Source: Patescibacteria group bacterium (GTDB lineage: Bacteria > Patescibacteriota > Microgenomatia > UBA1400 > PJMF01). From it: a stretch of 64,000 bases of DNA. Below, piece after piece: positions 1-32,588 of the stretch (positions are counted from its first letter, which is position 1; each line of letters opens with the position of its first letter). The position numbers were made by a program, and so were the translations under genes. The stretch covers positions 128,410-192,409 of the forward strand of contig JBMORP010000006.1 of assembly GCA_049322655.1 (NCBI GenBank). Reading direction: 5' to 3'. The notes under the pieces were generated by a model. That model was given only the letters and a program-made list of their open reading frames with translations. It ran no database searches and was not told where the DNA came from.

Positions 1-482
1 TTTTGTTTTTCTTTTTTTAGATTTTTGCTTTTATTAATCATCATTGGTGGATAAAGTAACTTTTCCTCTTTTTTATTGATTAGATATGGAGATTTCCCCG
101 TGATGGCCCACATATCATGAAGTGTCCAGACAAGTTTTTTTTCTTTTGAAATTTTAATAATTGTTTCCAATTTAAAATAATTTCCATGGAGATTTTGCAA
201 ATGAACAATCTCAGTTTGTTTATACCAAGGATGATCTAATATTTCTTTTTCTAAGCCAAAAGAAAGATCGTTAGAAAGTAAAAAATTTCTGAGATGTGAA
301 TAATTTGTGTGCCAATTATTAAAAAATCCTTGAACGTAGTTTTTATTAGATTTTTTAGTTCTAACTAACCATTTCACAACATAACCTCTGTTTATTAGTT
401 CATGACCCAAAGCCCAACTTTGCTGAGCGGCTCCACCTATAGTGTCGGCTGTGCCAATGATTAAGATTGAAGGTTTTTTCAT
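1..482 (-). CDS. Glycosyltransferase family 4 (GT1/GT4 clan), N-terminal part; gene continues beyond the window start
   Basis: Minus-strand reading from ATG at 482 (MKKPSILIIGTADTIGGAAQQSWALGHELINRGYVVKWLV...HDMWAITGKSPY) has no stop down to position 1; N-terminal GT4-type Rossmann domain; ATGA overlap with the upstream gene stop. Confidence 0.55.
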   Translation of the reverse strand, partial: MKKPSILIIGTADTIGGAAQQSWALGHELINRGYVVKWLVRTKKSNKNYVQGFFNNWHTNYSHLRNFLLSNDLSFGLEKEILDHPWYKQTEIVHLQNLHGNYFKLETIIKISKEKKLVWTLHDMWAITGKSPYLINKKEEKLLYPPMMINKSKNLKKEKQ

Positions 483-1222
483 TTCTTTTCAGCCATTATA
501 TAAATAAATGGTGAAGTAAATTTACTATTAAAACCAGCTAGTTTAAAAATTTTACCAATTACATAGATACAATAAACTATTAATTTATGAAAAATAGATT
601 TATTGGACAAATCTTCTAGCCAGATACTGAGTCCACCATAATAATTAACTTCGGACTTTTTTGGTTTTAAAGTTTTTACTATTTTTCTCAGGTTTTGAAT
701 GTCCATACTTTTGAGATTATGGATATTTAAATTATTTGGGTCAAAAAATAATTGAACATGACCATTTAGTCCTAATAAATTGGGTAAAATAATCAACATC
801 ACTCCACCTTTGTTGGTTAACTGCCAATGTTTGTTAATTACCTCATCAAAATTATCGAAATGCTCAATAAATCCAGATGAAAAAACCACATCATATTTTT
901 TATTAGTTTTGAATTTAAAGAAATCCTGTTCATAAACAGTCAAATCATTTTTATTTAAACTATTTTTTTTAAGTAAATTAGTAATAATTTTTTTATCAAT
1001 GACAAAATCTAATAAGTAAGATTTGAAGCCAAGGTATTTATTGTAATAAACAGCAAAATATCCAGGAAAACCGCCAATCTCTAAAAAAGTTTTTAAATTT
1101 TTATTTTTGCTGTATTTATTAAATAGATCAGTGAATGGATAATTTTTTTTGATATTAATCACTAAGTTTTTAGTTTTCCAATATTTTAGCCAGAATGATT
1201 TAGTGGTAAGACTGCGGTTCAT
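479..1222 (-). CDS. Class I SAM-dependent methyltransferase
   Basis: Motif I-like LEIGGFPGYF, post-I acidic residue, 247 aa; sits in a glycan cluster. Confidence 0.55.
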   Translation of the reverse strand: MNRSLTTKSFWLKYWKTKNLVINIKKNYPFTDLFNKYSKNKNLKTFLEIGGFPGYFAVYYNKYLGFKSYLLDFVIDKKIITNLLKKNSLNKNDLTVYEQDFFKFKTNKKYDVVFSSGFIEHFDNFDEVINKHWQLTNKGGVMLIILPNLLGLNGHVQLFFDPNNLNIHNLKSMDIQNLRKIVKTLKPKKSEVNYYGGLSIWLEDLSNKSIFHKLIVYCIYVIGKIFKLAGFNSKFTSPFIYIMAEKK

Positions 1223-2136
1223 TGAATATATCTTACCAGAGCACCCAAAATAGTTCTCAACTTTATATATAAGTGTTTTTCTGTAAGAGCATCAAATTGT
1301 TCATTTTGTTTTATTTTACTTGGATGTTTAAGTGGAAAATTAATTTTGTTAGCTTTCAAGGAATTAACATTACTTTTATATTTAGTGTTAGTTGCTTGTT
1401 CACCAAAACCAATGTTTTTAACTAGGTTTTTAGCTGGAATAATGGTTAGTAGATTATGTTTAAAAGAACTGTAAGTCCAACGATATGCCCAAGAGTCAAT
1501 TTTTAATTTACTTACAGCAGTGAAAATCAAATACCAGTAATACTTAACTAATGGAGATGAATAATGGTGATTTTTCCAGACTTGTTGCCAATCAGTCATT
1601 TCATTATCAAATAACTTCCAAGCTCTTTTCCAAGTAGCCCAGCCCCATGAGTGCGGATATTGAGAAAAGTAGTAACTAGCTTGAGGAGTTTTTTTGTTAA
1701 ATAAAAAGTTATCGCCAGTAATGCTGCCAATGTGTTTATTATTTTTGTATTTAATTAGTAATTGTTCAGTAAATACAAAAAATGATGGATTGCTAACACA
1801 ATCATCTTCAAGAATTATGGCTGTTTCTTCTTTTTCAAAGACTTGGTTAAGACCAGAAACAATTCTGTTCCTAAGCCCCATGTTTCTGGAAGCATAAATT
1901 TTAATAACTTTAGCTGGCCAAGTAATATTTTGTTCAACTAGTTTTCTAGTTTCATCTGTGAGCTTTTTCTCTTGATTGTTTTTGGGTCCATCAGCCACTA
2001 AATATATTTTTTTAGGCTTTATCTCCCTGAGTGAAACAAAAGCTTGATCGACATAATCTGGTCTATTATAAAAAATAAAAACAATTGGTATTGAAAACTT
2101 TTTAGTTAATTTTGGCATAAGTTTTTCCCATGGCAA
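1219..2136 (-). CDS. GT-A fold glycosyltransferase (GT2-like)
   Basis: N-terminal FIFYNRPDY...LVADGP, acidic EDD motif (ILEDDCVSNPSFF), HSWGWATWKRAW segment typical of GT-A enzymes; family assignment uncertain. Confidence 0.45.
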   Translation of the reverse strand: MPWEKLMPKLTKKFSIPIVFIFYNRPDYVDQAFVSLREIKPKKIYLVADGPKNNQEKKLTDETRKLVEQNITWPAKVIKIYASRNMGLRNRIVSGLNQVFEKEETAIILEDDCVSNPSFFVFTEQLLIKYKNNKHIGSITGDNFLFNKKTPQASYYFSQYPHSWGWATWKRAWKLFDNEMTDWQQVWKNHHYSSPLVKYYWYLIFTAVSKLKIDSWAYRWTYSSFKHNLLTIIPAKNLVKNIGFGEQATNTKYKSNVNSLKANKINFPLKHPSKIKQNEQFDALTEKHLYIKLRTILGALVRYIQ

Positions 2137-2944
2137 AACTAACTAATAAAATTAGAGAAATAATTTTTTGAGCAAGATTTTGCTTAGTCGTTGGCTTTTT
2201 GATTGGTGATTTATTCGCAAATAATTTTGGATATTTATTTTGAATAAAAAAAGTTGATTGGCCTCTTCTAAAAGCATCTTGAATCAGCCAAATTAAATTA
2301 ATCTTTTTATCAGCTAAAAAATGACTAACTTTAATTTTTGGATCGTAATAAATGGGAATACCAGCTAAAGATAATCTAATTAGTAAATCTGTTTCTTCAC
2401 CATATGAAACTTTGTTACCGATCATACCCAATTTATTATTAAAACCGTTAATATCTTTTAGTAAAGATTTTTTAAAAATCATACTAGTTCCACTGAGCCA
2501 TTCAGAACCAATAATAAGTTTTTTTACAGTTTTACCATTGTTCATCGTTCCGTAACTCTCTGGGAACCAAAAAGGGATTTTTTTGTTACTATGCCTGGAA
2601 TATGAGCCTCCAAAAGCCTCTATTTTCGGTTCTTTTTTAATAAAATTAAGGATTGATCCAACAAAATTTGAGTCAGCAATTGAGTCATCATCTATATAGG
2701 CAACATATTTACCATTAGCTTTTTTCCAGCCAGTGTTTCTAGCAAATGATAGGCCAGTATTCTTTTCAAACAGATAGATTGTATTTTTAAAGTTACTAAC
2801 TATATTTTTGGCTGTTTTTTGTGGGTAATTATCAACCACGATTAATTCAGTATCTTTGGTTAATTGTTGGTGCAATGAAGCTAAGCACTTTTTTAGCAGT
2901 TGCGGCCGATTGTGAGTAGCGACGATGATTGAAAGGGTGATCAT
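2102..2944 (-). CDS. Glycosyltransferase family 2
   Basis: LSIIVATHNRPQLLKKCLASL...ELIVVDN...YIDDDS (DXD); the start may lie slightly downstream because it overlaps the neighbour by 35 nt. Confidence 0.75.
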   Translation of the reverse strand: MITLSIIVATHNRPQLLKKCLASLHQQLTKDTELIVVDNYPQKTAKNIVSNFKNTIYLFEKNTGLSFARNTGWKKANGKYVAYIDDDSIADSNFVGSILNFIKKEPKIEAFGGSYSRHSNKKIPFWFPESYGTMNNGKTVKKLIIGSEWLSGTSMIFKKSLLKDINGFNNKLGMIGNKVSYGEETDLLIRLSLAGIPIYYDPKIKVSHFLADKKINLIWLIQDAFRRGQSTFFIQNKYPKLFANKSPIKKPTTKQNLAQKIISLILLVSFAMGKTYAKIN

Positions 2945-3936
2945 TTTTTAAAAAATTTAGTTGTTAGTAAAAAGCAGATAGATAATAAAGTGAGGTCAAA
3001 GTGAATTATAGCTAATACTAAAATTAGTGGATTATTTTTATAATTCAAAGCTAACATTCCAGCCCAACGTTCTCCAATAATCTTAGTTAGTGATTTCTGT
3101 TCAAAGTATTTTGTTTTTAAATTCTGGAGCAAAATTAGTCTTAACCAGGTTGCTATCTCAGCAAATTCTTTAAAAGAAACATCTTTAGACCAACTGCTAA
3201 GTTTCTGGTGAATATTTTTGTATTCTTTATTTGGCTTAATACCTAGTTTATGTAGTTGGTATTTTCTAATTTTCCATGAACTTTCTTGTTGCTCATGACC
3301 ACTTTTTATAGGAGTTTGTTCTGAGTGAGTCCGGTAGTGAAGTAATATCTCAGGATAGTTCGTTATTTTTATTTTTTCTGCTGATTTAACCCATAAAGCA
3401 AAGTCTTCTGCATATTTATACTTAGGATCATAAGATAAATTATTAGTTACTAAATCTTTTTTTCTGATTATCACTGATGGGTGAGCTAGACATGATTCAA
3501 ACAGCATTCTGGCTCTAATTAGATTAGGATTAGTAATAGTTTCCCAAACATAGTTTTTATTACCAAAATTTTTAATCCATGAACCTAAGATAGCAATATC
3601 TTTATTTTTTTCTAAAAATTTCACTTGTTTAACAAATCTAGTTTTAACCGAGATATCATCAGCATCCATTCTAGCAATGTATTTACCACTAGCTTCTTTA
3701 AAACCCTCGTTAAGAGAATAGATTAGACCTTTATTGATTTTATGCTTGATGACTTTGATTCTTGAATCTTGATATTGGTTAATAATCTTTAAAGAATTAT
3801 CTGTGGAACCATCATCAACAATAATAAATTCAAAGTTTTCAAAAGTTTGGTCTAAAATGCTTTCAATAGCTTCTGAAAGATATTTTTCAGAGTTATAGAC
3901 AGGCATTACTACGCTAAGTAGTAAGTTTTTTTTCAT
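2941..3936 (-). CDS. Glycosyltransferase family 2
   Basis: LSVVMPVYNSEKYLSEAIESILDQT...FIIVDDGSTDNS...ARMDADD. Confidence 0.8.
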   Translation of the reverse strand: MKKNLLLSVVMPVYNSEKYLSEAIESILDQTFENFEFIIVDDGSTDNSLKIINQYQDSRIKVIKHKINKGLIYSLNEGFKEASGKYIARMDADDISVKTRFVKQVKFLEKNKDIAILGSWIKNFGNKNYVWETITNPNLIRARMLFESCLAHPSVIIRKKDLVTNNLSYDPKYKYAEDFALWVKSAEKIKITNYPEILLHYRTHSEQTPIKSGHEQQESSWKIRKYQLHKLGIKPNKEYKNIHQKLSSWSKDVSFKEFAEIATWLRLILLQNLKTKYFEQKSLTKIIGERWAGMLALNYKNNPLILVLAIIHFDLTLLSICFLLTTKFFKK

Positions 3937-4826
3937 GATCTAATTTTTATCCAATTATTAGGAATTATATCAGTGGTATTTGAGTTTTTATTTTTAAACC
4001 AAGGATCGGGGGCAACAACAATTTTATTTTTGTTTTGGTTCAACCAGGCTCCCCACCAGCTGAAAGAACTATTAGCAATAATATTGTGTTTACATAAACT
4101 CATTAGTCTCATGTCTTCAAAACTTTGTTTACCTTTGTTGTGGTCAACAAAAAGACTATTCTTAGGAACTGGTAGATTATCTTTACACCATTGTGGATCA
4201 TCAGAAAAAACCACAAATAAAGGCTTAGTTATTTTTTTAGCCAATAAATTAATTGCTTGTTTATAGTATGTTAAGGGAACTACCCCATGATAAGCATTCG
4301 TTAGTTTATTTGAGACATAGTCTCCCCGTCTAACGTGTAATGATATCGCTTGGTTTTTAATTATTTCTTTTATTATTTCTCTATTCTTTTTTGAAGTTTT
4401 TTTAGGAAAAGTAAAGTCTTCTAAAATTAGATTTCGATATTTTTTAAAGTACTTTTCTGTTTGCCAGTATCCATCTAATAAGTAATCACCTCTTAATCTG
4501 AGGATATTTGAATAAAAGTTGTGCCCATTCTCTTTGATCCAATTTGGTGGATAAGCATGCAACTTTAATTTTAAGTAATGGTTCAATAAAAGTTTGAGCT
4601 TATTTGGTTTTGTAAACTTTTCTAATAAATGTTTGTTTGCTGGGGTGGCTTTTATATTGTTGAAGGTATGAAGTTCATAGCTTCTAGGTGTATCAACTTC
4701 TTGCTGGTTGTCATACAGAGAGAGATCTAGAAAATAATCTGTTTTATTTAAGTAGCTAACTACTCTACCAACAGCATATTGAAACATTTGGTTACCAAGT
4801 CCTCCATTAAGGCGTGAAATTATCAT
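3933..4826 (-). CDS. Alpha-1,2-fucosyltransferase (GT11, FutC/WbsJ-like)
   Basis: GT11 hallmark motifs GGLGNQMFQYA near the N-terminus and HVRRGDY; 297 aa. Confidence 0.8.
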   Translation of the reverse strand: MIISRLNGGLGNQMFQYAVGRVVSYLNKTDYFLDLSLYDNQQEVDTPRSYELHTFNNIKATPANKHLLEKFTKPNKLKLLLNHYLKLKLHAYPPNWIKENGHNFYSNILRLRGDYLLDGYWQTEKYFKKYRNLILEDFTFPKKTSKKNREIIKEIIKNQAISLHVRRGDYVSNKLTNAYHGVVPLTYYKQAINLLAKKITKPLFVVFSDDPQWCKDNLPVPKNSLFVDHNKGKQSFEDMRLMSLCKHNIIANSSFSWWGAWLNQNKNKIVVAPDPWFKNKNSNTTDIIPNNWIKIRS

Positions 4827-5743
4827 TTTGTTAGTTTTCTGTAATTAATAGCTATTAAGTTATAAATTAGATAAAAAAATAGTAAATAGTATTTAGTGGT
4901 TAATTTTTTAGTTAAGTTAGGACCAAGTTCTTTTTTAACTAGATTCAAGATTTTAAAATTAGGAAATTCAATAATTAGTTGCTGGGCGACAATATTTAAA
5001 TAATATTTTAAAAATGAATTATTATCCAAAAGAGATTGGTACTTTTTTGCTAAACCTGTTATACCAAAAATAATTCTTTTTTTATCAGAGGACATATTGT
5101 TATTGTGTCTTCTAATTAAAACTAATGGCTCTTTTACTAGATCAACTAAGTATTTTTGACTAATTCTAAGCCACATTTCCCAGTCTTCAGCAGCAACAAG
5201 ATTTTCATCAAAGAGTCCAACTTGATCAAAACATTCTCTTCTTATTAAAACCCCACTACCACTAGCAGAAATTTTATTTCCTGAAGCTAATTCGGAATGA
5301 ATACGGCCTTTTAGGGTTTTAATTGTTTTAAAACTAGGATAATTAATTAATTTTTTTCCGTTTTGATCAATGTCTTCATAATCACAATATACTAAACCTA
5401 ATTGTTTGTTATTTTGTTTGTTAAATATGGCAAATTGTTTTTCTAATTTTTTACCCAGCCAAAGATCATCTGAATCTAAAAAAGCAATATATTCTCCTGT
5501 TGCTTTTTTAATACCAGTATTTCTAGAAGCGCTCAACCCTTTATTATTTTGATAAATATATTTAATTATTGGATATTTTTTACTAAATTCAGACACTATT
5601 TTTCGAGTTTGGTCAGTAGAACCATCATCAACAATAATAATTTCTTTTGGTGGCAATGACTGATTGAGAACAGAATCAATGCATTCACCGATGAAATCAG
5701 CATTGTTGAAAGTTGGAATAATAACACTTATTTTATTTTTCAT
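4823..5743 (-). CDS. Glycosyltransferase family 2
   Basis: ISVIIPTFNNADFIGECIDSVLNQ...IIIVDDGSTDQT...FLDSDDLW. Confidence 0.8.
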   Translation of the reverse strand: MKNKISVIIPTFNNADFIGECIDSVLNQSLPPKEIIIVDDGSTDQTRKIVSEFSKKYPIIKYIYQNNKGLSASRNTGIKKATGEYIAFLDSDDLWLGKKLEKQFAIFNKQNNKQLGLVYCDYEDIDQNGKKLINYPSFKTIKTLKGRIHSELASGNKISASGSGVLIRRECFDQVGLFDENLVAAEDWEMWLRISQKYLVDLVKEPLVLIRRHNNNMSSDKKRIIFGITGLAKKYQSLLDNNSFLKYYLNIVAQQLIIEFPNFKILNLVKKELGPNLTKKLTTKYYLLFFYLIYNLIAINYRKLTK

Positions 5744-6914: not shown

Positions 6915-7672
6915 AATAATTTAAGTCCATTAATTAGAATGATAATTAAATTTTTTAAATATAATTTTTTTAGATTAAATAAAAATATTGAAATAAATAA
7001 ATTTAATTTTACTTTTTGTTGAGATAATGAATTATTTCTAATACTGTTACTAGGATCATCTCGATAAATAATTAGTGGTTGTGGCAGATAAACCATTTTT
7101 AAACCTAATGAAGCGATCTTTAACCATAAATCATAATCTTCGGTGGCTCTTAGATTTTTATTTTCATTAAATCTTAAATTTTTTATAATTTTTGTTTTTA
7201 CTAAAACTGAACTATTTATAACGACATTATTTTTTAAAAGATTATTTAAATTTAATTGATAAGTTTGACTAGTTGGAAAATATGTTTTGTTGGTTTTTAA
7301 AACTTGAGCATTAGTAGAAATAAAGTCGGCATTTTTAGTTTTAAGAGTGGCTAATTGAATTTTTAATTTATTTTTAAGCCATTGATCATCATCATCTAAA
7401 AAACTTACCAATGATCCGGTAGCTAATTTTAGTCCATGATTTCTTGTCACAGCTGGTAAGCCAGTGTGTTTATTTTTTAGATAAATAATTCTTTGATCTT
7501 TTTTTTGCAAACCTTTTACCAGATTCTCAGTTTCAATTTCAGAACCATCATCAGAAACAATTATTTCTAGGTGTTTATAGGTTTGAGTTTGAACACTAGA
7601 AATCGCCTTTTTTAAAAATTGAGGTCGATTATAGGTTGGAATAATGACTGAAATTTTTTCTATTTTGCCCAT
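6911..7672 (-). CDS. Glycosyltransferase family 2
   Basis: ISVIIPTYNRPQFLKKAISSVQTQ...IIVSDDGS...FLDDDDQW. Confidence 0.75.
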   Translation of the reverse strand: MGKIEKISVIIPTYNRPQFLKKAISSVQTQTYKHLEIIVSDDGSEIETENLVKGLQKKDQRIIYLKNKHTGLPAVTRNHGLKLATGSLVSFLDDDDQWLKNKLKIQLATLKTKNADFISTNAQVLKTNKTYFPTSQTYQLNLNNLLKNNVVINSSVLVKTKIIKNLRFNENKNLRATEDYDLWLKIASLGLKMVYLPQPLIIYRDDPSNSIRNNSLSQQKVKLNLFISIFLFNLKKLYLKNLIIILINGLKLL

Positions 7673-9698: not shown

Positions 9699-9705
9699 AA
9701 AATTG

Positions 9706-11340
9706 TCACTTTATTAAATCACAAAAAATATGATCTTCATCTCTAGAATTCTTGGGGTCAGGTCTATATTCTAAAGGTAAATTTTTTGCTAATGATCTAT
9801 CTCTACCTGAAAATCTAACTTGTTTATAACCAACCTTGATTGCAATTTCCTTTAAATATTGAGGGGTTAAAATGTTTTTGTGAACATAATCATCCCAAAT
9901 TCCAGTCCCAATACCATCATAACCGTCTTTAAATTTGGTTTGTCTGTTCTTTAATGAAGGAAAAAGGCTAGGAGTACTAATTCGATGAACTGATCCAGGC
10001 TTAAGAACTCTGTATACCTCAGCTAAAAGTAGGATTTGTTCTTTTTGATTCAAGTGCTCTATAAAATCTTCATGAAATACTACTTCTACAGAGCTACTTG
10101 GTAACGGGATTTTATGTTTGGTTACATCAAAGAGATAAAAATCTTTTCTAGTTCCCCTAATTTGAGCTGGATAAAATTTGTTGGTGTAGTATTTTAAGTA
10201 TTTTTGGTAATGTTCATACCTGATATCAAGATTTATCCAGTTTTTTAAAACTCTTGGACCAGAACCCAAATGTATTTTTTTAACTTTTGTATCTTTGGCT
10301 AATTTTTTTAATCTTTCGTAATCTTTTCTTTTATGATTCTTTTTTGTAAAGCTTAAATCAACAGTTTTTATGTCTTTGATATGTTTTTTTAAGAAATAAT
10401 AAATATCTATTAAGTAAAGTTTGACTAAAAAGTAAGGAACATACTTAAAAGTATCACTGTTTAAATATTTAAATTTGCTAAGTATTTTTTTAATATAAAA
10501 TTTTGTTCCGAGATCATCATTGTATTTTTTATAAATTTTAAAAAGATTTAAATAAAAATAATTGGCTAAGTTGTAGTTTATTTCTTTATTAAATTGACCA
10601 TTAAAATAATTATTTAATGTCTCACAGGTTTGAACTCCACCATCATCAAATATTTTTATTTCATCATTTTTATTATTTGGTTTTGAGATGCCATTATCAT
10701 GTCTCCTATACACTCCCATTACATCTTTAAAATATTTCATCTTCCCATATTTAGTAAAAATTATTTGCAATAACCAATCGGCACCACTAATATTTTGGGA
10801 AATTTTATAAAATTCTCTCAAGATTTGCTTGTTATTTTTAAAAACTAAAGAACACGTAGCCCCAGAGCTACCAAATTTTAAAAGATCATTAATAGTTGAG
10901 ATAGATCTATAATTTTTTCCAAGCCACTCAATGTATTTATTTTCATTTTGATAATAAACAAAGACGTTATGAGAAGTAATTGTAAAATCAGGATTTTTTT
11001 CTAAAAAATCTACCTGTTTTTGTAATTTTAGTGGGTCTGTCCAATAGTCATCACCTTCACAGTAAGCGATGTATTTACCAGTAGCTTTTTGTAAAATTAT
11101 TGGAGTAATTTTTTTGCCAAGTGAATATTGATTCTTTTTTTGAATAATTAATTTTATTATTTTTGGGTATTTTTTTTGAAAATTATTTATAATTCTTTGT
11201 GTTTTATCAGTAGAAGCATCATCATGAATGATTATTTCTATAGGAAAGTTAGTTTTTTGATTTAAAAATCCATTGATAGTCTTTTTTATATATTTTTCTT
11301 GATTGTATGTTATGCAGCAAATAGATAAAAGTGGTTTCAC
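9706..11340 (-). CDS. Bifunctional GT2 glycosyltransferase (N-terminal) plus SAM-dependent methyltransferase (C-terminal)
   Basis: N-terminal LSICCITYNQEKYIKKTINGFLNQ...IIIHDDASTDKT...YCEGDDYW; C-terminal IHLGSGPRVLKNWINLDI, resembling the motif I of the 7660-8310 methyltransferase. Confidence 0.65.
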   Translation of the reverse strand: MKPLLSICCITYNQEKYIKKTINGFLNQKTNFPIEIIIHDDASTDKTQRIINNFQKKYPKIIKLIIQKKNQYSLGKKITPIILQKATGKYIAYCEGDDYWTDPLKLQKQVDFLEKNPDFTITSHNVFVYYQNENKYIEWLGKNYRSISTINDLLKFGSSGATCSLVFKNNKQILREFYKISQNISGADWLLQIIFTKYGKMKYFKDVMGVYRRHDNGISKPNNKNDEIKIFDDGGVQTCETLNNYFNGQFNKEINYNLANYFYLNLFKIYKKYNDDLGTKFYIKKILSKFKYLNSDTFKYVPYFLVKLYLIDIYYFLKKHIKDIKTVDLSFTKKNHKRKDYERLKKLAKDTKVKKIHLGSGPRVLKNWINLDIRYEHYQKYLKYYTNKFYPAQIRGTRKDFYLFDVTKHKIPLPSSSVEVVFHEDFIEHLNQKEQILLLAEVYRVLKPGSVHRISTPSLFPSLKNRQTKFKDGYDGIGTGIWDDYVHKNILTPQYLKEIAIKVGYKQVRFSGRDRSLAKNLPLEYRPDPKNSRDEDHIFCDLIK

Positions 11341-12176
11341 ATCAAACTTTCAGCGAAAATAATTGGGCGTCTAAAAAATTCACTATTATTTTTTATATTT
11401 ATATCCTCTAGAAAATTAGTTAGAAGTTTTTCTGAATTATTATCTAAAAGATCAACTAATATTTTTTTATTAATCTCTTGATAAACAAAATGATCTTTTT
11501 TTCTATGTGGATATATTATTTTTAATATTTTATAACTTTCGTTATTAAATAATTTGATTAAATATTTAATTTTTTCAATATCTTTTTCTAAAGAAATTAT
11601 TGGTTTTTGTTTGTTACCTCCCCAGTTAAAACCCATTTGGAAAATCAAGTATTTAGTTCTCGTTGCCATTTTTTTTAAATACTTACTAATATAAAGATTA
11701 AAATCATCAAGATTACTTATTTTATCTTGAGAAAAATCAACTCCGGCATGATGCAAAACATTAAATAATAAAATTAGATCAGTTTTTTTTAATTTATTAA
11801 TATTATTAAGAACTACTGACTCTTTATTTAAAGATAGATTGCTGATTTTAAAACAGTCTTTTATTAATTCCATAAATTGGCAATGAATTTCATTTTGTTC
11901 TATGGCTGTTATTTTTTTATTTGTAAAATCATGTGCTAATGATAAAGAAAAAAATCCACTATTAGCTCCAATATCTGCAATACTATCAATATGGTATTTA
12001 TTTAATATTTTTTTTAAAAAAGCGTATCTTGATAAATCGTCTCTCCACAAATGATCTAGCACTTCATTATAATCAAGTTCACCTTTTAAAAAGTCAGGAA
12101 TACTCTGATATCTGTAATGTTTTGAATTTTTGTTATAAAGATTCTTTAACTTATTTTTTAACGATTCTTTTTTCAT
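11337..12176 (-). CDS. SAM-dependent methyltransferase (FkbM-like)
   Basis: IADIGANSGFFSLSLA motif I in the FkbM-family style; 279 aa. Confidence 0.45.
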   Translation of the reverse strand: MKKESLKNKLKNLYNKNSKHYRYQSIPDFLKGELDYNEVLDHLWRDDLSRYAFLKKILNKYHIDSIADIGANSGFFSLSLAHDFTNKKITAIEQNEIHCQFMELIKDCFKISNLSLNKESVVLNNINKLKKTDLILLFNVLHHAGVDFSQDKISNLDDFNLYISKYLKKMATRTKYLIFQMGFNWGGNKQKPIISLEKDIEKIKYLIKLFNNESYKILKIIYPHRKKDHFVYQEINKKILVDLLDNNSEKLLTNFLEDINIKNNSEFFRRPIIFAESLM

Positions 12177-13264
12177 ATTCCAAGCTCCTTCATAAAAACT
12201 CTAATTGTATCTAACTTAAAATAGACATCATAAAAGAAGTGTTTGAGTAAAAAAACGATTAAATATCTTGGCTTTTTTATATACCAAGTAATTTCTTTAT
12301 TATTTTTAATATTCTCTATAAAGCCACCCAACCATAAATAAGTTGTTTTTTCTGTTTTGTTGTTTTTAATTTTTATATTTATATTATCCTCAATAAATTT
12401 AGTTAGAATTTCATCCTGTGTCTCTGCAATCAAATTCATTGGGCCCCATAGTCTCGGATTTGCTTCAATAAAGAAGAATTTATTTTTTATTTGCTTTACT
12501 TCAATCATTATCAATCCATGAAATTTTAAATCTTTTAAAATTCTTTCAAATTTGTAACTGATTGTTTTAAAGTGAAGATTAGATTTTTTAGCAAAAATTA
12601 TAGACTTTCCATTATATTGCTGAGCCAAATTTTTTTGTGATGACTTAAAAATTATTCCGTTCTTACTGATATAGTATAGAAGGTAATAACTTTGTCCATT
12701 AATATATTCTTGGTAAAAAAAGTCTCTTTGATCTTCTTTTAACAAAAAATTAGCTTTTTCTTGATTGTTAAATATTAAATATGGATATTTAGTCTCTTTT
12801 TTTATATTTACAATTGGTTTGGCAACAAATGGGTAATCTAGTTTAAATAGTTTTTTAAATTCTTTTGGAATTAAAATATCATTTTTCTTTAAATAATTGG
12901 CAAAAGATTTTTTATTACTTACTTTTAAATATAAACTTTTATTGACTAATGGAACTAAAATCTTATTTTTTAAAAGTATCAAATTGTTTTTCAATAAAAA
13001 TTGATTTAAAAATTCTGAGGTTGGTAATATAACTACATTATCAAAATTTATTTTTTTTCTGATAGTTATTATTTCTTTGGCACTCAGACTATCACTTTTT
13101 CTAGTAAAAATTACATTTTTTTTATATTTAGTTAGAAATACAAGATCAGTTTTACTTTTAGCAATAATAAAAAAATTGACATTATATTTTGAAAAAAGTC
13201 TGCAAATTACAATAATGGCTCTAAAGTTATAGTCAGAAAATATTAAAAAAGAAGTTTTTTTCAT
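12173..13264 (-). CDS. ATP-grasp domain enzyme (carboxylate-amine ligase candidate)
   Basis: C-terminal FFFIEANPRLWGP, the E-x-N-P-R signature of ATP-grasp folds; central YPFVAKP...; 363 aa. Confidence 0.5.
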   Translation of the reverse strand: MKKTSFLIFSDYNFRAIIVICRLFSKYNVNFFIIAKSKTDLVFLTKYKKNVIFTRKSDSLSAKEIITIRKKINFDNVVILPTSEFLNQFLLKNNLILLKNKILVPLVNKSLYLKVSNKKSFANYLKKNDILIPKEFKKLFKLDYPFVAKPIVNIKKETKYPYLIFNNQEKANFLLKEDQRDFFYQEYINGQSYYLLYYISKNGIIFKSSQKNLAQQYNGKSIIFAKKSNLHFKTISYKFERILKDLKFHGLIMIEVKQIKNKFFFIEANPRLWGPMNLIAETQDEILTKFIEDNINIKIKNNKTEKTTYLWLGGFIENIKNNKEITWYIKKPRYLIVFLLKHFFYDVYFKLDTIRVFMKELGI

Positions 13265-13266
13265 TT

Positions 13267-14346
13267 TTAGTAAATTTCATTAACTATACTTTTTATTTCT
13301 TCATTTGAAATATCATGAAAAAGAGGTAGACATACAATTCTACAGGAAATATTCTCTGATATGGGCATTTTTTGATTTTTAATATATGGCAATTCTGAGA
13401 GTGAAGGATAAAAATATCTTCGTGGGTAAATATTTTTTTTATTTAGTCTTTCAATGACTTCCAAAAGTTTTTTTTCAGAATTAAAAATAATTGGATAATA
13501 GGAATAGTTTGTTTTACAATTTTTATCAACTAATATCTTAGAAATAAAGCTTTTATTGGCTAGTAATTTATCATACAGTTTAGAAGCTTTTTTTCTTCGA
13601 GAGATTAATTTTTTAACATATTTTAAATTAATCAAACCCATTGCTGAGTGAAATTCAGAAATTTTACCATTGATACCAACACCCCAATAATCATATTGGC
13701 CATTATGACCAAAGTTTCTCATATATTCTATTTTATGAGCTAACTTCTTATCATTTGTAATGATTACTCCACCCTCTACAGTATGAAAAACTTTAGTAGC
13801 GTGAAAACTAATAATAGAAATATCTCCATAACTGGCTAGGCTTTTTTCGTAATATTTTGACCCAAATGTATGAGCAGCATCATAAATAACTTCAAGATTA
13901 TATTTTTTAGCAATCTTTTTTATGACTTCAACATTGGTGGGATAGCCAAAAATATGAGTAGCTAAAATAGCTCTGGTTTTTTTAGTAATTTTTTGTTCTA
14001 TTTCTTTTGGATCAATCATCAAAGTTTGTGGGTCTATATCTGCAAAAATTGGTTTGTATCCTTCCCAAACAATTGCTGAAGTAGTCGCTACATAAGAAAA
14101 AGGAGTGGTAATTATTTCATCACGTTTATCTTTTTCTAAAGATTTAATAGCTATCTGTAGAGCAGTGGTTCCATTGTTAACTAGGAATAAATACTTTACA
14201 CCTAAAAACTTTTTAAGTTTTTCTTCTAAATTTCTAGTTAATTTACCGTTGTTTGTTAACCAGCCACTAGACCAGATTTTTTCTAAATATTCAAAATATT
14301 CTTTTTTATTTGGTAGAAAACTTTTAGTTACATTAATTATTTTCAT
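13267..14346 (-). CDS. DegT/DnrJ/EryC1/StrS-family PLP-dependent sugar aminotransferase
   Basis: FLVNNGTTALQIAIKSL, ILATHIFGYP, SFHATKVFHTVEGG (PLP Lys region); 359 aa. Confidence 0.85.
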   Translation of the reverse strand: MKIINVTKSFLPNKKEYFEYLEKIWSSGWLTNNGKLTRNLEEKLKKFLGVKYLFLVNNGTTALQIAIKSLEKDKRDEIITTPFSYVATTSAIVWEGYKPIFADIDPQTLMIDPKEIEQKITKKTRAILATHIFGYPTNVEVIKKIAKKYNLEVIYDAAHTFGSKYYEKSLASYGDISIISFHATKVFHTVEGGVIITNDKKLAHKIEYMRNFGHNGQYDYWGVGINGKISEFHSAMGLINLKYVKKLISRRKKASKLYDKLLANKSFISKILVDKNCKTNYSYYPIIFNSEKKLLEVIERLNKKNIYPRRYFYPSLSELPYIKNQKMPISENISCRIVCLPLFHDISNEEIKSIVNEIY

Positions 14347-15539
14347 TGAGTTCTTTTGTTCTCACTAAGTATGTTTATTATTCCAATATTTATTTTTTTA
14401 TTTTTGTTAGACCATTTTGGAATAATCTTAAATTTACTAAGTCTTTCTCCATAGAACCAGTCTTTAGAGTCATCTTGGTAACCTCCAATGTAAATATAGT
14501 AATCATCTGGTCTTAATAAATTTTCTTTTATTATAAATTCAGATACAAACTCTCCTTTTTTAATTGTTTCTGGTTTACTAGTATCTTGAATAGAAAAAAT
14601 TCTACAATCTTGATTGTAAATTGATAGGGTAATTCTAATATTTTCAATTTTTTCTTTAACTTTTCCAAATACTTTGATTTTTAATTCTTCACTTGGATTA
14701 ATAGTTGCACCATTAGTTAATCCATTTATTCTTACTTTATTAATACTTACCTTTTTGGCTAAAGGGCCAAAAAATTCACTTTCGTTAAAAGAAGTATTAT
14801 TTAGATATTTAGCTATTACTGTATTTGTTTTTCCAATTTGTAAAATGTTTCCTTCTTTTAAAAAGATTGTTTTTTCACAAAGAGTGTTAATAGAACCCAT
14901 GTCGTGACTAACAAAAATAACTGTTTTCCCAGATTTAGCTAGATCATTCATTTTACCTAAGCACTTTTTTTGAAACTCAGCATCACCTACAGCTAGTACT
15001 TCATCTACTAGTAAAATATCAGCATCTAAGTGAGCAGCCACAGCAAAAGCTAAGCGAACATACATACCAGAGGAATATCTTTTAACAGGTGTATCTAAAA
15101 ATTTTTCTATTCCAGAAAACTTTACAATTTCATTAAACTTACTTTGAATTTCTTGTTTACCCATGCCCAAAATAGCACCATTAAGATAGATATTTTCTCG
15201 GCCGGTTAATTCTGGGTTAAAACCGGTACCAACCTCTAAAAGTGAAGCAATTTTGCCTTTCATAGTAATTTTGCCTTCAGTTGGTTCAACAATTCTAGAA
15301 AGAATTTTAAGTAATGTAGATTTGCCGGCTCCATTACGGCCAATAATTCCTACTACTTCTCCTTTTTTAATTTCAAAACTAACATTCTTTAATGCCCAGA
15401 ATTCTTCACTATTTTGCTTTTTAAATATTTTTTCTGGTAACTTCATTAGTTGGTCACGAAGTGTCACATAGGTATCTTGCTTACCTATTTTGTATTTTTT
15501 ACTTAAATTCTCAACTTTAATAACAACGTCTTTTTTCAT
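14343..15539 (-). CDS. wzt: ABC transporter ATP-binding protein, Wzt/TagH-like, with a C-terminal extension of about 150 aa (candidate glycan-binding domain)
   Basis: Walker A GIIGRNGAGKSTLLKIL, signature YSSGMYVRLAFAVA, Walker B ILLVDEVLAVGD; extra C-terminal beta-rich domain after about residue 250. Confidence 0.85.
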   Translation of the reverse strand: MKKDVVIKVENLSKKYKIGKQDTYVTLRDQLMKLPEKIFKKQNSEEFWALKNVSFEIKKGEVVGIIGRNGAGKSTLLKILSRIVEPTEGKITMKGKIASLLEVGTGFNPELTGRENIYLNGAILGMGKQEIQSKFNEIVKFSGIEKFLDTPVKRYSSGMYVRLAFAVAAHLDADILLVDEVLAVGDAEFQKKCLGKMNDLAKSGKTVIFVSHDMGSINTLCEKTIFLKEGNILQIGKTNTVIAKYLNNTSFNESEFFGPLAKKVSINKVRINGLTNGATINPSEELKIKVFGKVKEKIENIRITLSIYNQDCRIFSIQDTSKPETIKKGEFVSEFIIKENLLRPDDYYIYIGGYQDDSKDWFYGERLSKFKIIPKWSNKNKKINIGIINILSENKRTQ

Positions 15540-16361: not shown

Positions 16362-16362
16362 T

Positions 16363-17298: not shown

Positions 17299-17323
17299 AC
17301 CTTATGTTTATACCTTATTATAA

Positions 17324-20517: not shown

Positions 20518-20525
20518 ATAAACTC

Positions 20526-21550: not shown

Positions 21551-21555
21551 GTTCT

Positions 21556-22473: not shown

Positions 22474-22498
22474 AAATAACCTTTCGTTTTCTTTTTTC

Positions 22499-25308: not shown

Positions 25309-25309
25309 T

Positions 25310-27123: not shown

Positions 27124-27124
27124 A

Positions 27125-30405: not shown

Positions 30406-30429
30406 AACTATATGGTAACAAAATCTAGC

Positions 30430-32554: not shown

Positions 32555-32588
32555 AACGCCCTTTCTTGGCAGGTTAATAATAAACTTA

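What the first reader, a model, noticed from the sequence alone, without database searches (positions are those of the whole stretch)
1..14350. Compositional island: about 25% GC over the first ~14 kb versus 40-48% in the rest of the window
Hand counts on sampled 60-nt lines give the following.
- 22-28% GC at positions 1261, 5000, 8000, 10000 and 14000.
- 38-40% at 15000-18000.
- 43-48% at 25321 and 58000.

The proteins in the low-GC block are correspondingly Lys/Asn/Ile-rich. This block encodes the variable decoration enzymes: GT2s, GT4s, the GT11 fucosyltransferase, methyltransferases, MT-GT fusions, ATP-grasp and aminotransferase. The core export and nucleotide-sugar genes (wzm/wzt, fcl, gmd, rfbB) have the higher, presumably native, composition.

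This is the classic signature of a horizontally exchanged or hypervariable serotype-determining region. No integrase, transposase or tRNA flanks the block.
Basis: seen in the sequence. Interest (0 to 1): 0.6.

Follow-up and report, generated by a model that had tools for sequence, protein, structure and literature searches.

The report
Swappable surface-sugar gene cassette, AT-rich locus
An uncultured ultra-small (CPR, Pacebacteria-like) bacterium carries an AT-rich gene cluster for a cell-surface sugar polymer, and the central ~13.6 kb of it is a strain-specific cassette replaced by different genes in its relatives. This is a well-known kind of variable island, here documented in a little-studied lineage.

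Summary

- **Composition.** Window 1-14350 is 27.0% GC. The rest of the window is 35.7%, not 40-48%.
- **Extent of the trough.** It runs from about 3.5 kb left of the window start to about 21.1 kb (24.6 kb, 28.7% GC). Its flanks are 41% and 39% GC.
- **Host.** A Patescibacteria (Microgenomates, Pacebacteria-like) MAG. The whole window is a cell-envelope glycosylation super-locus.
- **Two layers, from sister genomes.**
  - The shoulders are vertically inherited, and their orthologs are AT-rich in the sisters too. The right shoulder is DUF2304, GT2, GT2, a 486-aa protein, fcl-like, wzm and the wzt ATPase domain. The left shoulder is a methyltransferase, GT4, a Wzx-like protein and a 512-aa protein.
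  - The centre (about 1223-14790) is strain-specific. It holds 13 genes plus the C-terminal domain of Wzt. Where sister contigs reach past wzt, unrelated genes occupy the same site.
- **No mobile-element signs.** There is no integrase, tRNA or flanking repeat, and genes overlap by 4 nt across both junctions.
- **Independent support.** Two other metagenomes carry the same wzt-DegT-ATP-grasp junction at 90-92% nucleotide identity and 25-26% GC.

Verdict: an ordinary replacement-type glycan island, and a new member of a known kind. Low GC by itself does not delimit the exchanged DNA.

The parts
1..482 (-). 3' part of a GT4 glycosyltransferase gene (382 aa; the rest lies left of the window). Conserved left shoulder of the AT-rich trough.
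   Evidence: Source contig locus L002. 31.8% GC. 72% identical ortholog of the same length in sister L176, itself 28.9% GC.
479..1222 (-). Methyltransferase (Methyltransf_23), 247 aa. Conserved left anchor of the variable cassette.
   Evidence: Pfam 39.3 bits. 24.7% GC. 70% identical 247-aa ortholog at the start of L176, 25.0% GC.
1219..2136 (-). Cassette gene 1: weak GT2-like protein, 305 aa (TTG start).
   Evidence: Pfam Glycos_transf_2 23.7 bits, just above the cutoff. No ortholog in the sister loci. 4-nt overlap with the methyltransferase gene.
2102..2944 (-). Cassette gene 2: GT2 glycosyltransferase.
   Evidence: Pfam 85.8 bits. 30.5% GC. No sister ortholog.
2941..3936 (-). Cassette gene 3: GT2 glycosyltransferase.
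   Evidence: Pfam 135.8 bits. 28.6% GC.
3933..4826 (-). Cassette gene 4: GT11 (alpha-1,2-fucosyltransferase family).
   Evidence: Pfam Glyco_transf_11 118.9 bits against cutoff 23.9. No NCBIfam equivalog.
4823..5743 (-). Cassette gene 5: GT2 glycosyltransferase.
   Evidence: Pfam 141.6 bits. 26.6% GC.
5733..6914 (-). Cassette gene 6: GT4 glycosyltransferase.
   Evidence: Pfam Glycos_transf_1 51.2 bits. 28.3% GC.
6911..7672 (-). Cassette gene 7: GT2 glycosyltransferase.
   Evidence: Pfam 110.5 bits. 24.1% GC, GC3 12.6%.
7660..8310 (-). Cassette gene 8: 216-aa protein, faintly methyltransferase-like.
   Evidence: Only Methyltransf_23 at E=0.0012, 19 bits, below cutoff. No NCBIfam hit.
8307..9698 (-). 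Cassette gene 9: methyltransferase (Methyltransf_24) - GT2 fusion, 463 aa.
   Evidence: Pfam 45.5 and 101.8 bits on separate halves.
9706..11340 (-). Cassette gene 10: GT2 - methyltransferase (Methyltransf_11) fusion, 544 aa.
   Evidence: Pfam. Among 1.84 billion representatives, the only full-length relative is its own cluster (97%). The next hits cover only the GT2 half (55%) or only the MT half (48%).
11337..12176 (-). Cassette gene 11: 279-aa methyltransferase-like protein. Lowest-GC part of the island.
   Evidence: Weak GidB/Methyltransf_12 hits below cutoff. 22.1% GC.
12173..13264 (-). Cassette gene 12: ATP-grasp ligase (PylC-like). Inferred to acylate the amino sugar.
   Evidence: Pfam ATP-grasp_3 26.3 bits. 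21.9% GC. 96% identical fragment in independent contig L094.
13267..14346 (-). Cassette gene 13: DegT/DnrJ/EryC1-type sugar aminotransferase.
   Evidence: Pfam 328 bits. Best NCBIfam match is DesI-like, far below cutoff. Relatives: one at 89%, then a drop to 65% (Beckwithbacteria) and 63% or less.
14343..14790 (-). Cassette-specific C-terminal domain of Wzt (residues ~251-398). Putative carbohydrate (cap)-binding domain.
   Evidence: Sister Wzt proteins align only to residues 1-250. Pfam Wzt_C E=9.3e-6, 26.1 bits, below cutoff 30.4. A low-confidence all-beta model has best fold matches to Wzt CBDs 8dky/6o14, 2r5o and 5hno. 95% identical in L094/L095. GC step at 14868.
14791..15539 (-). Wzt ATPase (nucleotide-binding) domain. 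Conserved right anchor of the cassette.
   Evidence: Pfam ABC_tran 89.7 bits. Best PDB match WzmWzt 8dku/7k2t, E=5e-70. 69% and 61% identical in sisters L088 and L091.
15540..16361 (-). Wzm ABC-2 permease. Conserved right shoulder.
   Evidence: Pfam ABC2_membrane 61.2 bits. 82% (L088) and 47% (L091) identical. 33.0% GC.
16363..17298 (-). GDP-L-fucose-synthase-like SDR (fcl-like). Highly conserved backbone gene with native-like GC.
   Evidence: NCBIfam GDPFucSynFcl 303.5 bits, below cutoff 500. 85-91% identical in all four sister lineages. 36.5% GC.
17324..18784 (-). 486-aa multi-pass membrane protein of unknown family. Backbone, AT-rich.
   Evidence: No Pfam or NCBIfam hit. About 6 crude TM segments. 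54% orthologs in L088/L091 that are also 26-28% GC.
18781..19728 (-). GT2 glycosyltransferase. Backbone (absent from the L088 lineage).
   Evidence: Pfam 91.5 bits. 66% ortholog in L091, 57% in L085. 28.5% GC.
19729..20517 (-). GT2 glycosyltransferase. Backbone, AT-rich.
   Evidence: Pfam 51.3 bits. 66-69% orthologs in three sister lineages at 28-31% GC.
20526..20870 (-). DUF2304 small membrane protein. Backbone, at the inner edge of the right GC boundary.
   Evidence: Precomputed Pfam PF10066. 58-88% orthologs at 28-32% GC.
20867..21550 (-). GT2 glycosyltransferase spanning the right-hand GC change point (~21118).
   Evidence: Pfam 87.4 bits. 34.1% GC. 80-83% orthologs. Change point.
21556..22473 (-). 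SDR epimerase/dehydratase. First gene of the 39% GC right flank.
   Evidence: 42.2% GC. Smooth ortholog ladder 93, 91, 90, 87, 86, 85%..., with named hits being Pacebacteria.

Best explanation
**What it is.** The window comes from a Pacebacteria-like (CPR/Patescibacteria, Microgenomates) genome in which more than 70 kb is devoted to envelope glycosylation. Inside this super-locus sits one long, translationally coupled minus-strand operon for a polysaccharide exported by a Wzm/Wzt ABC transporter.

**How it is organised.**
- The outer parts of the AT-rich stretch are vertically inherited.
  - Right shoulder: DUF2304, GT2, GT2, a 486-aa membrane protein, fcl-like, wzm and the wzt ATPase domain.
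  - Left shoulder: a methyltransferase, GT4, a Wzx-like protein and a 512-aa membrane protein.
- The centre (about 1223-14790) is a strain-specific cassette. It holds a sugar aminotransferase, an ATP-grasp ligase, two clear methyltransferase-GT2 fusions, two weaker methyltransferase-like genes, five clear GT2s plus one marginal GT2-like gene, one GT4, one GT11 and the C-terminal domain of Wzt. Together these set the fine structure of the polymer.

**How it most likely works (inferred).**
- Whole cassettes are swapped between related strains by homologous recombination in the conserved shoulders, as in replacement flexible genomic islands and O-antigen loci.
- The Wzt cap-binding domain travels with the cassette, so the exporter keeps recognising the glycan terminus that the cassette's enzymes make.
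- Diversifying pressure on the exposed glycan maintains many alternative cassettes. The likely agents are phages and, for an episymbiont, host-cell contact.

**The low GC.** It is a long-standing property of this locus and of the pool of glycan genes that circulates through it. It is not the footprint of one recent import from a distant AT-rich donor.
For: **Shown**
- Composition: island about -3521..21078 at 28.7% GC, against 41.4% (left) and 36.5% (right). GT2 genes inside versus outside differ at all three codon positions, p about 1e-4.
- Host lineage: ArgRS is 94% and 74% identical to Pacebacteria-type MAGs. Named epimerase hits are Pacebacteria.
- Conserved backbone on both sides, with the gene order retained. 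Both flanks lie on one sister contig (ENA NODE_27), about 32 kb apart against about 29 kb here. That leaves a 12.8-kb slot against 13.1 kb here.
- Different gene content after wzt in the sisters: NeuB, formyltransferase and AP-endonuclease-like genes in L088/89, and Methyltransf_21 plus NTP-transferase in L091.
- Shoulder orthologs are also AT-rich in the sisters. Gene-wise GC correlation is r=0.77-0.83. Shoulder versus flank orthologs are 30.7/34.7, 32.6/36.9 and 31.1/34.5% GC, p=0.006-0.017.
- Sister Wzt proteins match only residues 1-250.
- The same junction (wzt C-terminus, DegT, ATP-grasp) occurs in two independent metagenomes at 90-92% nucleotide identity and 25-26% GC.
- Cassette genes are rare. 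DegT drops from 89% to 65%. The GT2-MT fusion has no other full-length relative.
- No tRNA, integrase or flanking repeats, and only 60-75-nt GT-motif matches to phages. 4-nt overlaps run through both junctions.

**From the literature**
- O-chain clusters are typically lower in GC than their genomes (PMC11898729).
- The Wzt CBD recognises the capped glycan terminus (PMC9445017).
Against: - Recombination itself was not observed. No pair of near-identical genomes with different cassettes, or of divergent genomes with identical cassettes, was available.
- About 11 kb of the sister cassette on NODE_27 (108,628-119,700) was not seen, so some shared genes there cannot be excluded.
- The backbone is itself rearranged in some sisters. 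L083 lacks the GT2-DUF2304-GT2-GT2-486aa module, and L085 shows no wzm/wzt within reach. The anchors are therefore not universal.
- The CBD assignment rests on a sub-threshold Pfam hit and a low-confidence model (pLDDT 55). The domain alone finds no solved homolog by sequence.
- No priming transferase or chain terminator was specifically identified.
- The nature of the polymer and its acceptor is inferred only from annotation.
- The cause of the AT-richness is unresolved.
Confidence: 0.75

Rival explanations
1. Recent one-step horizontal acquisition of the whole low-GC block from a distant AT-rich donor outside the host lineage. This is the classical reading of a compositional genomic island.
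For: The island is 8-13 GC points below its flanks at all three codon positions, even when the comparison is restricted to GT2 genes. Tetranucleotide observed/expected correlation with the flanks is lower (0.85) than flank-to-flank (0.95). Some DegT relatives at 56-61% carry Bacteroidetes names.
Against: - About 11 kb of the trough is syntenic backbone whose orthologs are AT-rich in sister genomes.
- No relative of the two cassette genes searched exceeds 65% (DegT, whole protein) or 55% (GT2-MT fusion, one domain only) outside the same cassette type.
- The nearest named DegT relative is another CPR, Beckwithbacteria.
- There is no integrase, tRNA or repeats.
- Dinucleotide signature distances to the flanks (48-74) overlap the distances among the flanks themselves (40-65).
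Confidence: 0.08
2. The AT-richness is produced in place by a locus-specific mutational or selective regime, and the gene-content differences among sisters reflect ordinary gain and loss rather than cassette exchange. Candidate regimes are weak expression, relaxed codon selection, or selection for AT-rich DNA in this operon.
For: - Vertically inherited shoulder genes are AT-rich in every sister lineage examined.
- Different cassettes are mostly AT-rich too: L091 22-27%, L085 24-30%, L083 20-25%, Beckwithbacteria locus 26.6%.
- PMC11898729 notes that a foreign origin cannot easily explain O-chain clusters that are AT-richer than already very AT-rich genomes.
Against: - Sister contigs that reach past wzt carry unrelated genes there, and the slot on NODE_27 (12.8 kb) is close in size to ours (13.1 kb). 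That favours replacement over piecemeal drift.
- The same cassette type recurs at 90-92% identity in other samples.
- The break falls inside wzt, at a domain boundary.
- The L088/89 cassette is not AT-rich, at 31-39% GC.
- This rival explains the composition but not the gene content. It is compatible with, rather than exclusive of, the best explanation.
Confidence: 0.12
3. Assembly artefact: a metagenomic chimera that joins an AT-rich organism's contig to a 36-40% GC organism's contig.
For: The sequence is metagenome-assembled. Variable regions often break or mis-join assemblies, and sister contigs L003 and L083 end near this region.
Against: - The island is flanked on both sides by same-lineage DNA.
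- The right GC boundary lies inside a stretch that is syntenic in four sister lineages.
- The wzt-DegT-ATP-grasp junction is reproduced in two independent samples.
- The left junction (MT, GT4, Wzx, 51x-aa protein) is reproduced in L176.
- Genes overlap by 4 nt across both junctions.
- The window and the Logan contig are identical over 33 kb compared.
Confidence: 0.02

Closest known systems
Replacement flexible genomic islands / O-chain biosynthetic clusters of aquatic bacteria (Alteromonas, Pelagibacterales, Haloquadratum; PMC4033161, PMC11898729)
   Same: - Same chromosomal site in related genomes, with unrelated gene sets of the same general function (surface glycan synthesis).
- Conserved flanking genes.
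- No integrase, tRNA or IS hallmarks.
- GC several points below the genome.
   Different: - The host is a CPR bacterium.
- The AT-rich zone is about twice the length of the replaced segment and includes vertically inherited genes.
- The island lies inside a much larger (>70 kb) glycosylation super-locus.
- Signatures of exchange (identical islands in divergent frames, synonymous-SNP peaks at the borders) could not be tested.
ABC-transporter-dependent O-antigen systems with capped glycans and a serotype-specific Wzt carbohydrate-binding domain (E. coli O8/O9a, Raoultella/Klebsiella O12, Aquifex aeolicus WzmWzt; PMC9445017; PDB 2r5o, 5hno, 6o14, 8dku)
   Same: - Adjacent wzm and wzt.
- Wzt has an ATPase domain plus a ~150-aa all-beta C-terminal domain whose best fold matches are Wzt CBDs.
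- Methyltransferases (potential capping enzymes) are encoded next to it.
- The C-terminal domain varies with the glycan genes while the ATPase domain is conserved.
   Different: - No WbdD-like kinase/methyltransferase terminator or Kdo-capping enzyme was identified.
- The Pfam Wzt_C score is below threshold.
- An LCP (LytR-CpsA-Psr) ligase at 51439-52575 suggests wall attachment of the Gram-positive type. No O-antigen-ligase-type (Wzy_C) domain was found in the window ORFs scanned.
- A Wzx-like flippase and a 512-aa polytopic protein also sit in the same operon.
Bipartite cell-wall polysaccharide loci of Gram-positive cocci (Streptococcus thermophilus rgp; PMC9746298, title and abstract only. 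Lactococcus cwps and Enterococcus epa are from my own knowledge.)
   Same: - The title and abstract of PMC9746298 describe a bipartite rgp locus whose diversity corresponds to backbone and side-chain differences.
- From my own knowledge, such loci have a conserved part with an ABC exporter and rml genes and a strain-variable part with decorating transferases.
- LCP-type attachment and GtrB/GT-C-type extracytoplasmic modification genes lie nearby in this window.
   Different: - Unrelated lineage.
- Many more GT-C (PMT_2) genes.
- The Wzt here carries a cap-binding-type domain.
- The variable part is bracketed on both sides by conserved genes of the same operon.
Classical integrative genomic islands (tRNA-linked, integrase-bearing)
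   Same: Deviant base composition and strain-specific gene content.
   Different: No integrase, tRNA, direct repeats or phage or plasmid similarity. Genes are translationally coupled to both neighbours.

Membership tests
Replacement flexible genomic island | Occupies the same genomic position, between the same conserved genes, in related genomes | tested here: met
   Right backbone in four sister lineages. Left backbone in three. Both lie on one sister contig, 32 kb apart against 29 kb here.
Replacement flexible genomic island | Different, non-homologous gene sets of the same general function at that position | tested here: met
   After wzt: DegT, ATP-grasp, MT and GTs here. NeuB, formyltransferase and AP-endonuclease-like genes in L088/89. 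Methyltransf_21 and NTP-transferase in L091. No cassette protein has a sister match above 30%. Caveat: 11 kb of the sister slot was not seen.
Replacement flexible genomic island | No hallmarks of integrative or transposable elements at the borders | tested here: met
   No tRNA. No integrase or transposase Pfam hit. The repeats found are GT2 coding motifs only. Phage matches are 75 nt or shorter. 4-nt gene overlaps at both junctions.
Replacement flexible genomic island | Signature of homologous-recombination exchange: identical island in divergent clonal frames, or a peak of synonymous substitutions in bordering genes | not testable with these tools
   The closest relatives with usable flanks are only 85-93% identical at protein level. 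The contigs carrying the same cassette type (L094/L095) are 2.5 kb or shorter and hold no backbone beyond wzt.
Wzm/Wzt ABC-transporter-dependent glycan pathway with cap recognition | ABC-2 permease Wzm adjacent to a Wzt/TagH-type ATPase | tested here: met
   Pfam ABC2_membrane 61.2 bits and ABC_tran 89.7 bits. PDB WzmWzt 8dku/7k2t E=5e-70 and TarH/TagH E=1e-60. NCBIfam equivalog cutoffs were not reached.
Wzm/Wzt ABC-transporter-dependent glycan pathway with cap recognition | C-terminal carbohydrate-binding domain on Wzt | tested here: inconclusive
   **For:** Pfam Wzt_C E=9.3e-6. The full-length alignment to A. aeolicus Wzt runs to residue 351. The model is all-beta, and three independent Wzt CBD structures are among the top fold hits, with probability 0.93-1.00 and TM 0.36-0.48.

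**Against:** 26.1 bits is below the 30.4 cutoff. Model pLDDT is 55. All Foldseek E-values exceed 1e-3. The domain alone finds no solved homolog by sequence.
Wzm/Wzt ABC-transporter-dependent glycan pathway with cap recognition | Dedicated chain-terminating (capping) enzyme such as WbdD or a Kdo transferase | tested here: inconclusive
   The cassette encodes two clear methyltransferase-GT2 fusions and two weaker methyltransferase-like genes, and a further methyltransferase (479-1222) flanks it. None matches a characterised terminator at equivalog level.
GDP-L-fucose pathway plus fucosyltransferase | Gmd, Fcl and a fucosyltransferase present | tested here: inconclusive
   Gmd passes the equivalog cutoff (438.9 against 415) but lies at 57708-58685. 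The fcl-like gene scores 303.5, below cutoff 500. GT11 Pfam is 118.9 bits, with no equivalog. The pathway is plausible but split among flank, backbone and cassette.
Integrative genomic island / prophage / ICE | Integrase or recombinase, tRNA or other att site, flanking direct repeats | tested here: not met

The most novel reading that the evidence does not exclude
**Shared cassette pool across CPR classes.** The AT-rich glycan cassettes of Pacebacteria may belong to a gene pool shared across CPR classes. The nearest DegT relative sits in an equally AT-rich (26.6% GC) but otherwise different cluster in Beckwithbacteria. In this reading the Wzt cap-binding domain is swapped together with the cassette as a matched lock and key.

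**Consequences if true.**
- Surface-glycan type in these ultra-small episymbionts would be a modular, exchangeable trait. It could govern phage susceptibility and possibly host-cell recognition.
- The AT-richness would be actively maintained across the whole locus, including the inherited shoulders, rather than being a relic of import.
Probability: 0.2. Interest if true: 0.5.

Novelty: new member of a known kind. Interest (0 to 1): 0.3.

Why it matters
- **A caution for compositional island-calling.** The GC trough (24.6 kb) and the exchanged segment (13.6 kb) do not coincide, and nearly half of the AT-rich DNA is vertically inherited.
- **Biology of the lineage.** Pacebacteria-like CPR bacteria, despite tiny genomes, appear to maintain strain-level diversity of a surface polysaccharide by cassette replacement. 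The exporter's recognition domain apparently co-varies with the cassette.
- **Possible relevance.** This bears on phage-host and symbiont-host specificity in an uncultured group.
- **Novelty.** The phenomenon itself is well established in other bacteria, so a specialist would not be surprised.

Tried and rejected
1. **Metagenome scan with the left-flank epimerase**. The best hit was 68%. The gene is a widespread GDP-sugar-pathway SDR found beside gmd/fcl homologs in genomes of 27-68% GC. From this I briefly inferred that the left flank is not conserved. That was wrong, and searches corrected it.
2. **Dinucleotide and tetranucleotide signatures**. The island differs only moderately from the flanks (delta* 48-74 against 40-65 among the flanks; tetranucleotide r 0.85 against 0.95). 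At these lengths this does not decide origin.
3. **Repeat search for att-like borders**. It found only GT2 coding motifs; GAACCATCATCAACAAT reads IIVDDGS on the coding strand.
4. **Phage similarity**. Only 60-75-nt glycosyltransferase motifs matched.
5. **Promoter and terminator scan at the left boundary**. Counts were at shuffle expectation.
6. **NCBIfam naming of cassette enzymes**. None reaches an equivalog cutoff, so sugar and linkage specificities remain unknown.
7. **Wzt C-terminal domain alone against PDB sequences**. Nothing significant.
8. **The last window ORF (62229-63461)** is not on record in the contig index.
9. **The Logan contig** ends near window position 53.4 kb. The window must therefore come from the longer NCBI assembly, whose contig is 652,381 bp, and that assembly could not be fetched.

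Full report
**1. The observation**

A 1-kb composition profile and per-gene statistics confirm that the first 14.35 kb of the window is AT-rich, at 27.05% GC. The comparison values in the finding are too high.
- The remainder of the window averages 35.7% GC.
- The richest stretch (20.8-32.2 kb) is 39.0%, and no 1-kb bin exceeds 42.5%.
However, such lines scatter with an SD of about 7 points, and only 16-28% of lines outside the block reach 43%.
- No 14.35-kb window in 20871-64000 falls below 35.0%, so the block is clearly not a chance fluctuation.

- The genes at 17324-20517 are again 28-29% GC, and wzt (14343-15539) is 28.7%.
- Only wzm (33.0%) and the fcl-like gene (36.5%) form a local bump.

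**2. True extent of the compositional feature**

The window matches a 77-kb Logan contig (SRR32167788_27246) that extends further left. I added 9.5 kb from locus L002 and verified 33 kb of exact identity between the loci and the window.
- GC climbs back to 40-46% about 3.5-4 kb left of window position 1.
- A likelihood change-point analysis on the composite finds two dominant breaks, at -3512 and +21118.
- The best three-segment model is an island from -3521 to 21078, 24.6 kb at 28.7% GC. It lies between 41.4% on the left and 36.5% on the right.

| Segment | Window coordinates | GC |
|---|---|---|
| Left flank | -9521..-3512 | 41.4% |
| Left shoulder | -3478..1222 | 31.1% |
| Cassette | 1223..14790 | 27.0% |
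| Right shoulder | 14791..20870 | 30.6% |
| Right flank to ArgRS | 20871..32196 | 39.1% |
| Rest of window | 32197..64000 | 35.6% |

(All values.)

The shift is not a protein-family artefact. Nine GT2 genes inside the island and eight outside differ in GC1 (0.36 against 0.46), GC2 (0.285 against 0.341) and GC3 (0.19 against 0.29), each with Mann-Whitney p of 6e-4 or less. GC-normalised signatures differ only moderately. The tetranucleotide correlation is 0.85 island-to-flank against 0.95 flank-to-flank, and delta* is 48-74 against 40-65 among the flanks.

**3. Gene content and host**

Pfam and NCBIfam scans show that essentially the whole window encodes envelope glycosylation.
- Many GT2, GT4 and GT-C (PMT_2) genes.
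- An LCP ligase at 51439-52575.
- rmlB-like and rmlD-like genes, and a UDP-glucose dehydrogenase.
- A bona fide gmd at 57708-58685 (438.9 bits against cutoff 415).
- A GtrA-fused GT2.
- The housekeeping genes ArgRS (30430-32196) and trmD (54718-55506) are embedded among them.

All genes from 479 to 42440 are on the minus strand. Within the island they mostly overlap by 4 nt.

ArgRS identifies the host as a CPR/Patescibacteria bacterium of the Microgenomates.
- It is 94% identical to a MAG contig (L003) and 74% to Candidatus Pacebacteria CG2_30_36_39. Matches to Levybacteria and Roizmanbacteria are about 50-55%.
- The window's own proteins are on record from an NCBI MAG named "Patescibacteria group bacterium", with a 652,381-bp contig.
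- Housekeeping genes and relatives' loci are 34-40% GC. The flanks therefore represent the native composition, not the island.

**4. Comparison with sister genomes (the decisive evidence)**

*Ortholog ladders.*
- The epimerase just right of the island (21556-22473) has a smooth ladder of orthologs: 93, 91, 90, 87, 86, 85% and on down.
- The island aminotransferase (13267-14346) has one relative at 89%. It then drops to 65% (Beckwithbacteria) and 63% or less.

*Right side.* Fetching sister contigs around the epimerase and mapping window proteins onto them shows a conserved backbone. Its order is ArgRS, PMT_2, PMT_2, GT2, GT4, GT-C, (389 aa), epimerase, GT2, DUF2304, GT2, (GT2), a ~490-aa protein, fcl-like, wzm, wzt. 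Beyond wzt each lineage carries different genes.

| Sister lineage | Content beyond wzt |
|---|---|
| L088/89 | An SDR, a 30%-identical DegT, an AP-endonuclease-fold protein, a formyltransferase and NeuB |
| L091 | A Methyltransf_21 protein and an NTP-transferase, at 22-27% GC |
| L085 | Rearranged, with no wzm/wzt within reach |
| L083 (closest) | Lacks the GT2-DUF2304-GT2-GT2-486aa module |

*Left side.*
- The PMT_2 gene left of the island also has a smooth ortholog ladder: 86, 78, 77, 75, 72, 71, 68%.
- Sister contigs around it carry MT(247 aa), GT4(382), Wzx-like(420) and a ~517-aa protein. These have the same lengths as ours and are 64-74% identical. They are followed by one or two epimerases, PMT_2, GT4, GT4 and RuvCAB.
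- On ENA NODE_27 both anchors lie on the same contig. wzt ends at about 106.7 kb and the 247-aa methyltransferase starts at about 119.5 kb, giving a 12.8-kb slot against 13.1 kb in the window.

*Conclusion.* The strain-specific segment is about 1223-14790. The AT-rich shoulders on both sides are inherited.
- Across backbone genes, GC in the window correlates with GC of the sister orthologs (r=0.77-0.83, p of 4e-4 or less).
- Shoulder orthologs in the sisters are significantly AT-richer than flank orthologs.

**5. The junction inside wzt**

Sister Wzt proteins align with ours only over residues 1-250, the ATPase domain (69% and 61% identity). The last ~148 residues have no counterpart. This break (about 14790) coincides with the internal GC step at 14868.

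The C-terminal part looks like a Wzt carbohydrate-binding domain, but the evidence is weak.
- It gives a sub-threshold Pfam Wzt_C hit (E=9.3e-6, 26.1 bits against cutoff 30.4).
- The full-length protein aligns with A. aeolicus Wzt to residue 351.
- A single-sequence AlphaFold model is all-beta but of low confidence (pLDDT 55).
- Its best fold matches include three independent Wzt carbohydrate-binding domains (8dky/6o14, 2r5o, 5hno) at probability 0.93-1.00 and TM 0.36-0.48. All E-values are above 1e-3.
- The domain alone finds nothing by sequence.

In characterised systems this domain recognises the chemically capped glycan terminus, for example a methyl cap (PMC9445017). The cassette encodes two clear methyltransferase-GT2 fusions and two weaker methyltransferase-like genes. 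I therefore infer, but have not shown, that the recognition domain and the cap-forming enzymes are exchanged as one unit.

**6. Is the assembly sound, and is the cassette found elsewhere?**
- Two short contigs from independent samples (ENA ERZ27293400 and JGI 3300004210) are collinear with window 12587-15109 at 90-92% nucleotide identity.
- They encode the Wzt C-terminal half (95% aa), DegT (89%) and the ATP-grasp protein (96%), and are 25-26% GC.
- So the right junction is real, and the same cassette type circulates elsewhere with the same composition.
- The GT2-methyltransferase fusion (9706-11340) has one full-length relative (97%, its own cluster). Otherwise it has only single-domain matches, 55% and 48%.
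- The 65% DegT relative lies in a Beckwithbacteria glycan cluster that is also AT-rich (26.6% over 21 kb). That cluster shares no other close gene with our cassette. Cassettes therefore look like mosaics drawn from an AT-rich pool of glycan genes.

**7. Mobile-element tests**
- No tRNA in the window.
- No integrase, transposase or recombinase domain.
- The repeat families are conserved GT2 coding motifs.
- Phage matches are 60-75-nt glycosyltransferase motifs.
- Promoter and terminator scans at the left boundary are at background.

**8. Interpretation**

The feature fits the replacement flexible genomic island / O-antigen-locus paradigm.
- A cassette of glycan-tailoring genes sits at a fixed site between conserved genes. 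It is presumably swapped by homologous recombination in those flanks and maintained diverse by selection on an exposed structure (PMC4033161).
- GC below the genome average is typical of such clusters. PMC11898729 reports 23.8% against 29.4% in Pelagibacterales and notes that foreign origin alone is an awkward explanation.

**9. Shown versus inferred**

*Shown:*
- the composition profile and its boundaries;
- the host lineage;
- the conserved backbone on both sides;
- different content at the slot in the sisters;
- ancestral AT-richness of the shoulders;
- the break inside wzt;
- independent recurrence of the junction;
- absence of mobile-element features.

*Inferred:*
- exchange by homologous recombination;
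- cap recognition by the Wzt C-terminal domain and its co-transfer with the cassette;
- the polymer being wall-linked through the LCP ligase;
- phage or host-contact selection.

*Unresolved:*
- why the locus is AT-rich;
- the chemical structure of the glycan;
- the content of the unseen 11 kb of the sister slot.

**10. Verdict**

This is a real but ordinary feature: a new member of a known kind, in an under-studied lineage. Interest 0.3.

Noticed in passing
window 44778-45674 (+): A 298-aa Pro/Thr-rich protein with no Pfam hit and unusual composition (45% GC, GC2 0.59). It has an N-terminal TM segment, a Cys-rich middle, PTTAPT-type repeats and a C-terminal LPETG motif followed by a hydrophobic tail. 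That ending is a sortase-type cell-wall sorting signal. Sitting among PMT_2 (protein-O-mannosyltransferase-like) genes, it is a candidate O-glycosylated wall-anchored protein.
   Followed up: partly
window 1-64000 plus about 10 kb to the left (L002): At least 70 kb of contiguous envelope-glycosylation genes, including seven PMT_2/GT-C-type genes in the window and one more in L002, with ArgRS and trmD embedded. If the 652-kb MAG contig is most of the genome, more than 10% of it is devoted to surface glycans.
   Followed up: partly
L176 7229-7837 (sister contig ENA NODE_27): A Gp49 (HigB-like) / HTH_3 toxin-antitoxin pair and a GT87-like gene are inserted between the conserved 517-aa membrane protein and the left-flank epimerase in one sister. 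Our genome has only a 150-aa and an 81-aa ORF there. This is a second, smaller variable spot at the left GC boundary.
   Followed up: no
L003 (CAYSQA010000016.1) and other TPA_asm MAGs: Several MAG contigs whose ArgRS is 52-94% identical to this Pacebacteria-like gene are titled 'uncultured Pseudomonadales' or 'uncultured Gammaproteobacteria'. These are probably taxonomic mislabels in the public records.
   Followed up: no
window 22499-23668 (-); L003, L083: The 389-aa polytopic membrane protein (faint PIG-V-like mannosyltransferase hit, E=0.01) is present in most sisters at 53-62% identity. It is absent from the closest lineage (L003/L083), where the GT-C gene is followed directly by the epimerase.
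   Followed up: partly
L083 8065-8982: In the closest sister the fcl-like gene (91% identical) directly follows the epimerase. The whole GT2-DUF2304-GT2-GT2-486aa module (window 17324-21550) is missing, so the 'backbone' is itself modular.
   Followed up: partly
window 42459-44513 (+), 45699-46826 (+), 46784-48184 (-), 32589-34262 (-), 39796-41538 (-): Five large ORFs (375-684 aa) without any Pfam hit inside the glycosylation super-locus. 32589-34262 and 39796-41538 show 25-30% tblastn similarity to the regions of sister loci that encode the PMT_2 orthologs, so they are probably divergent GT-C enzymes.
   Followed up: no
window 54718-55506 (-) and 55417-56733 (+): The mechanically called ORFs for trmD and the UDP-glucose dehydrogenase overlap by 90 nt at their divergent 5' ends (both TTG starts). 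The true starts are probably further downstream.
   Followed up: no
L002 11920-14701 (window -3478..-697): A Wzx-like flippase (Polysacc_synt) and a 512-aa protein with about 11 crude TM segments (Wzy-like?) lie in the same operon as wzm/wzt. Either two export routes are encoded side by side or the locus makes two glycans.
   Followed up: partly
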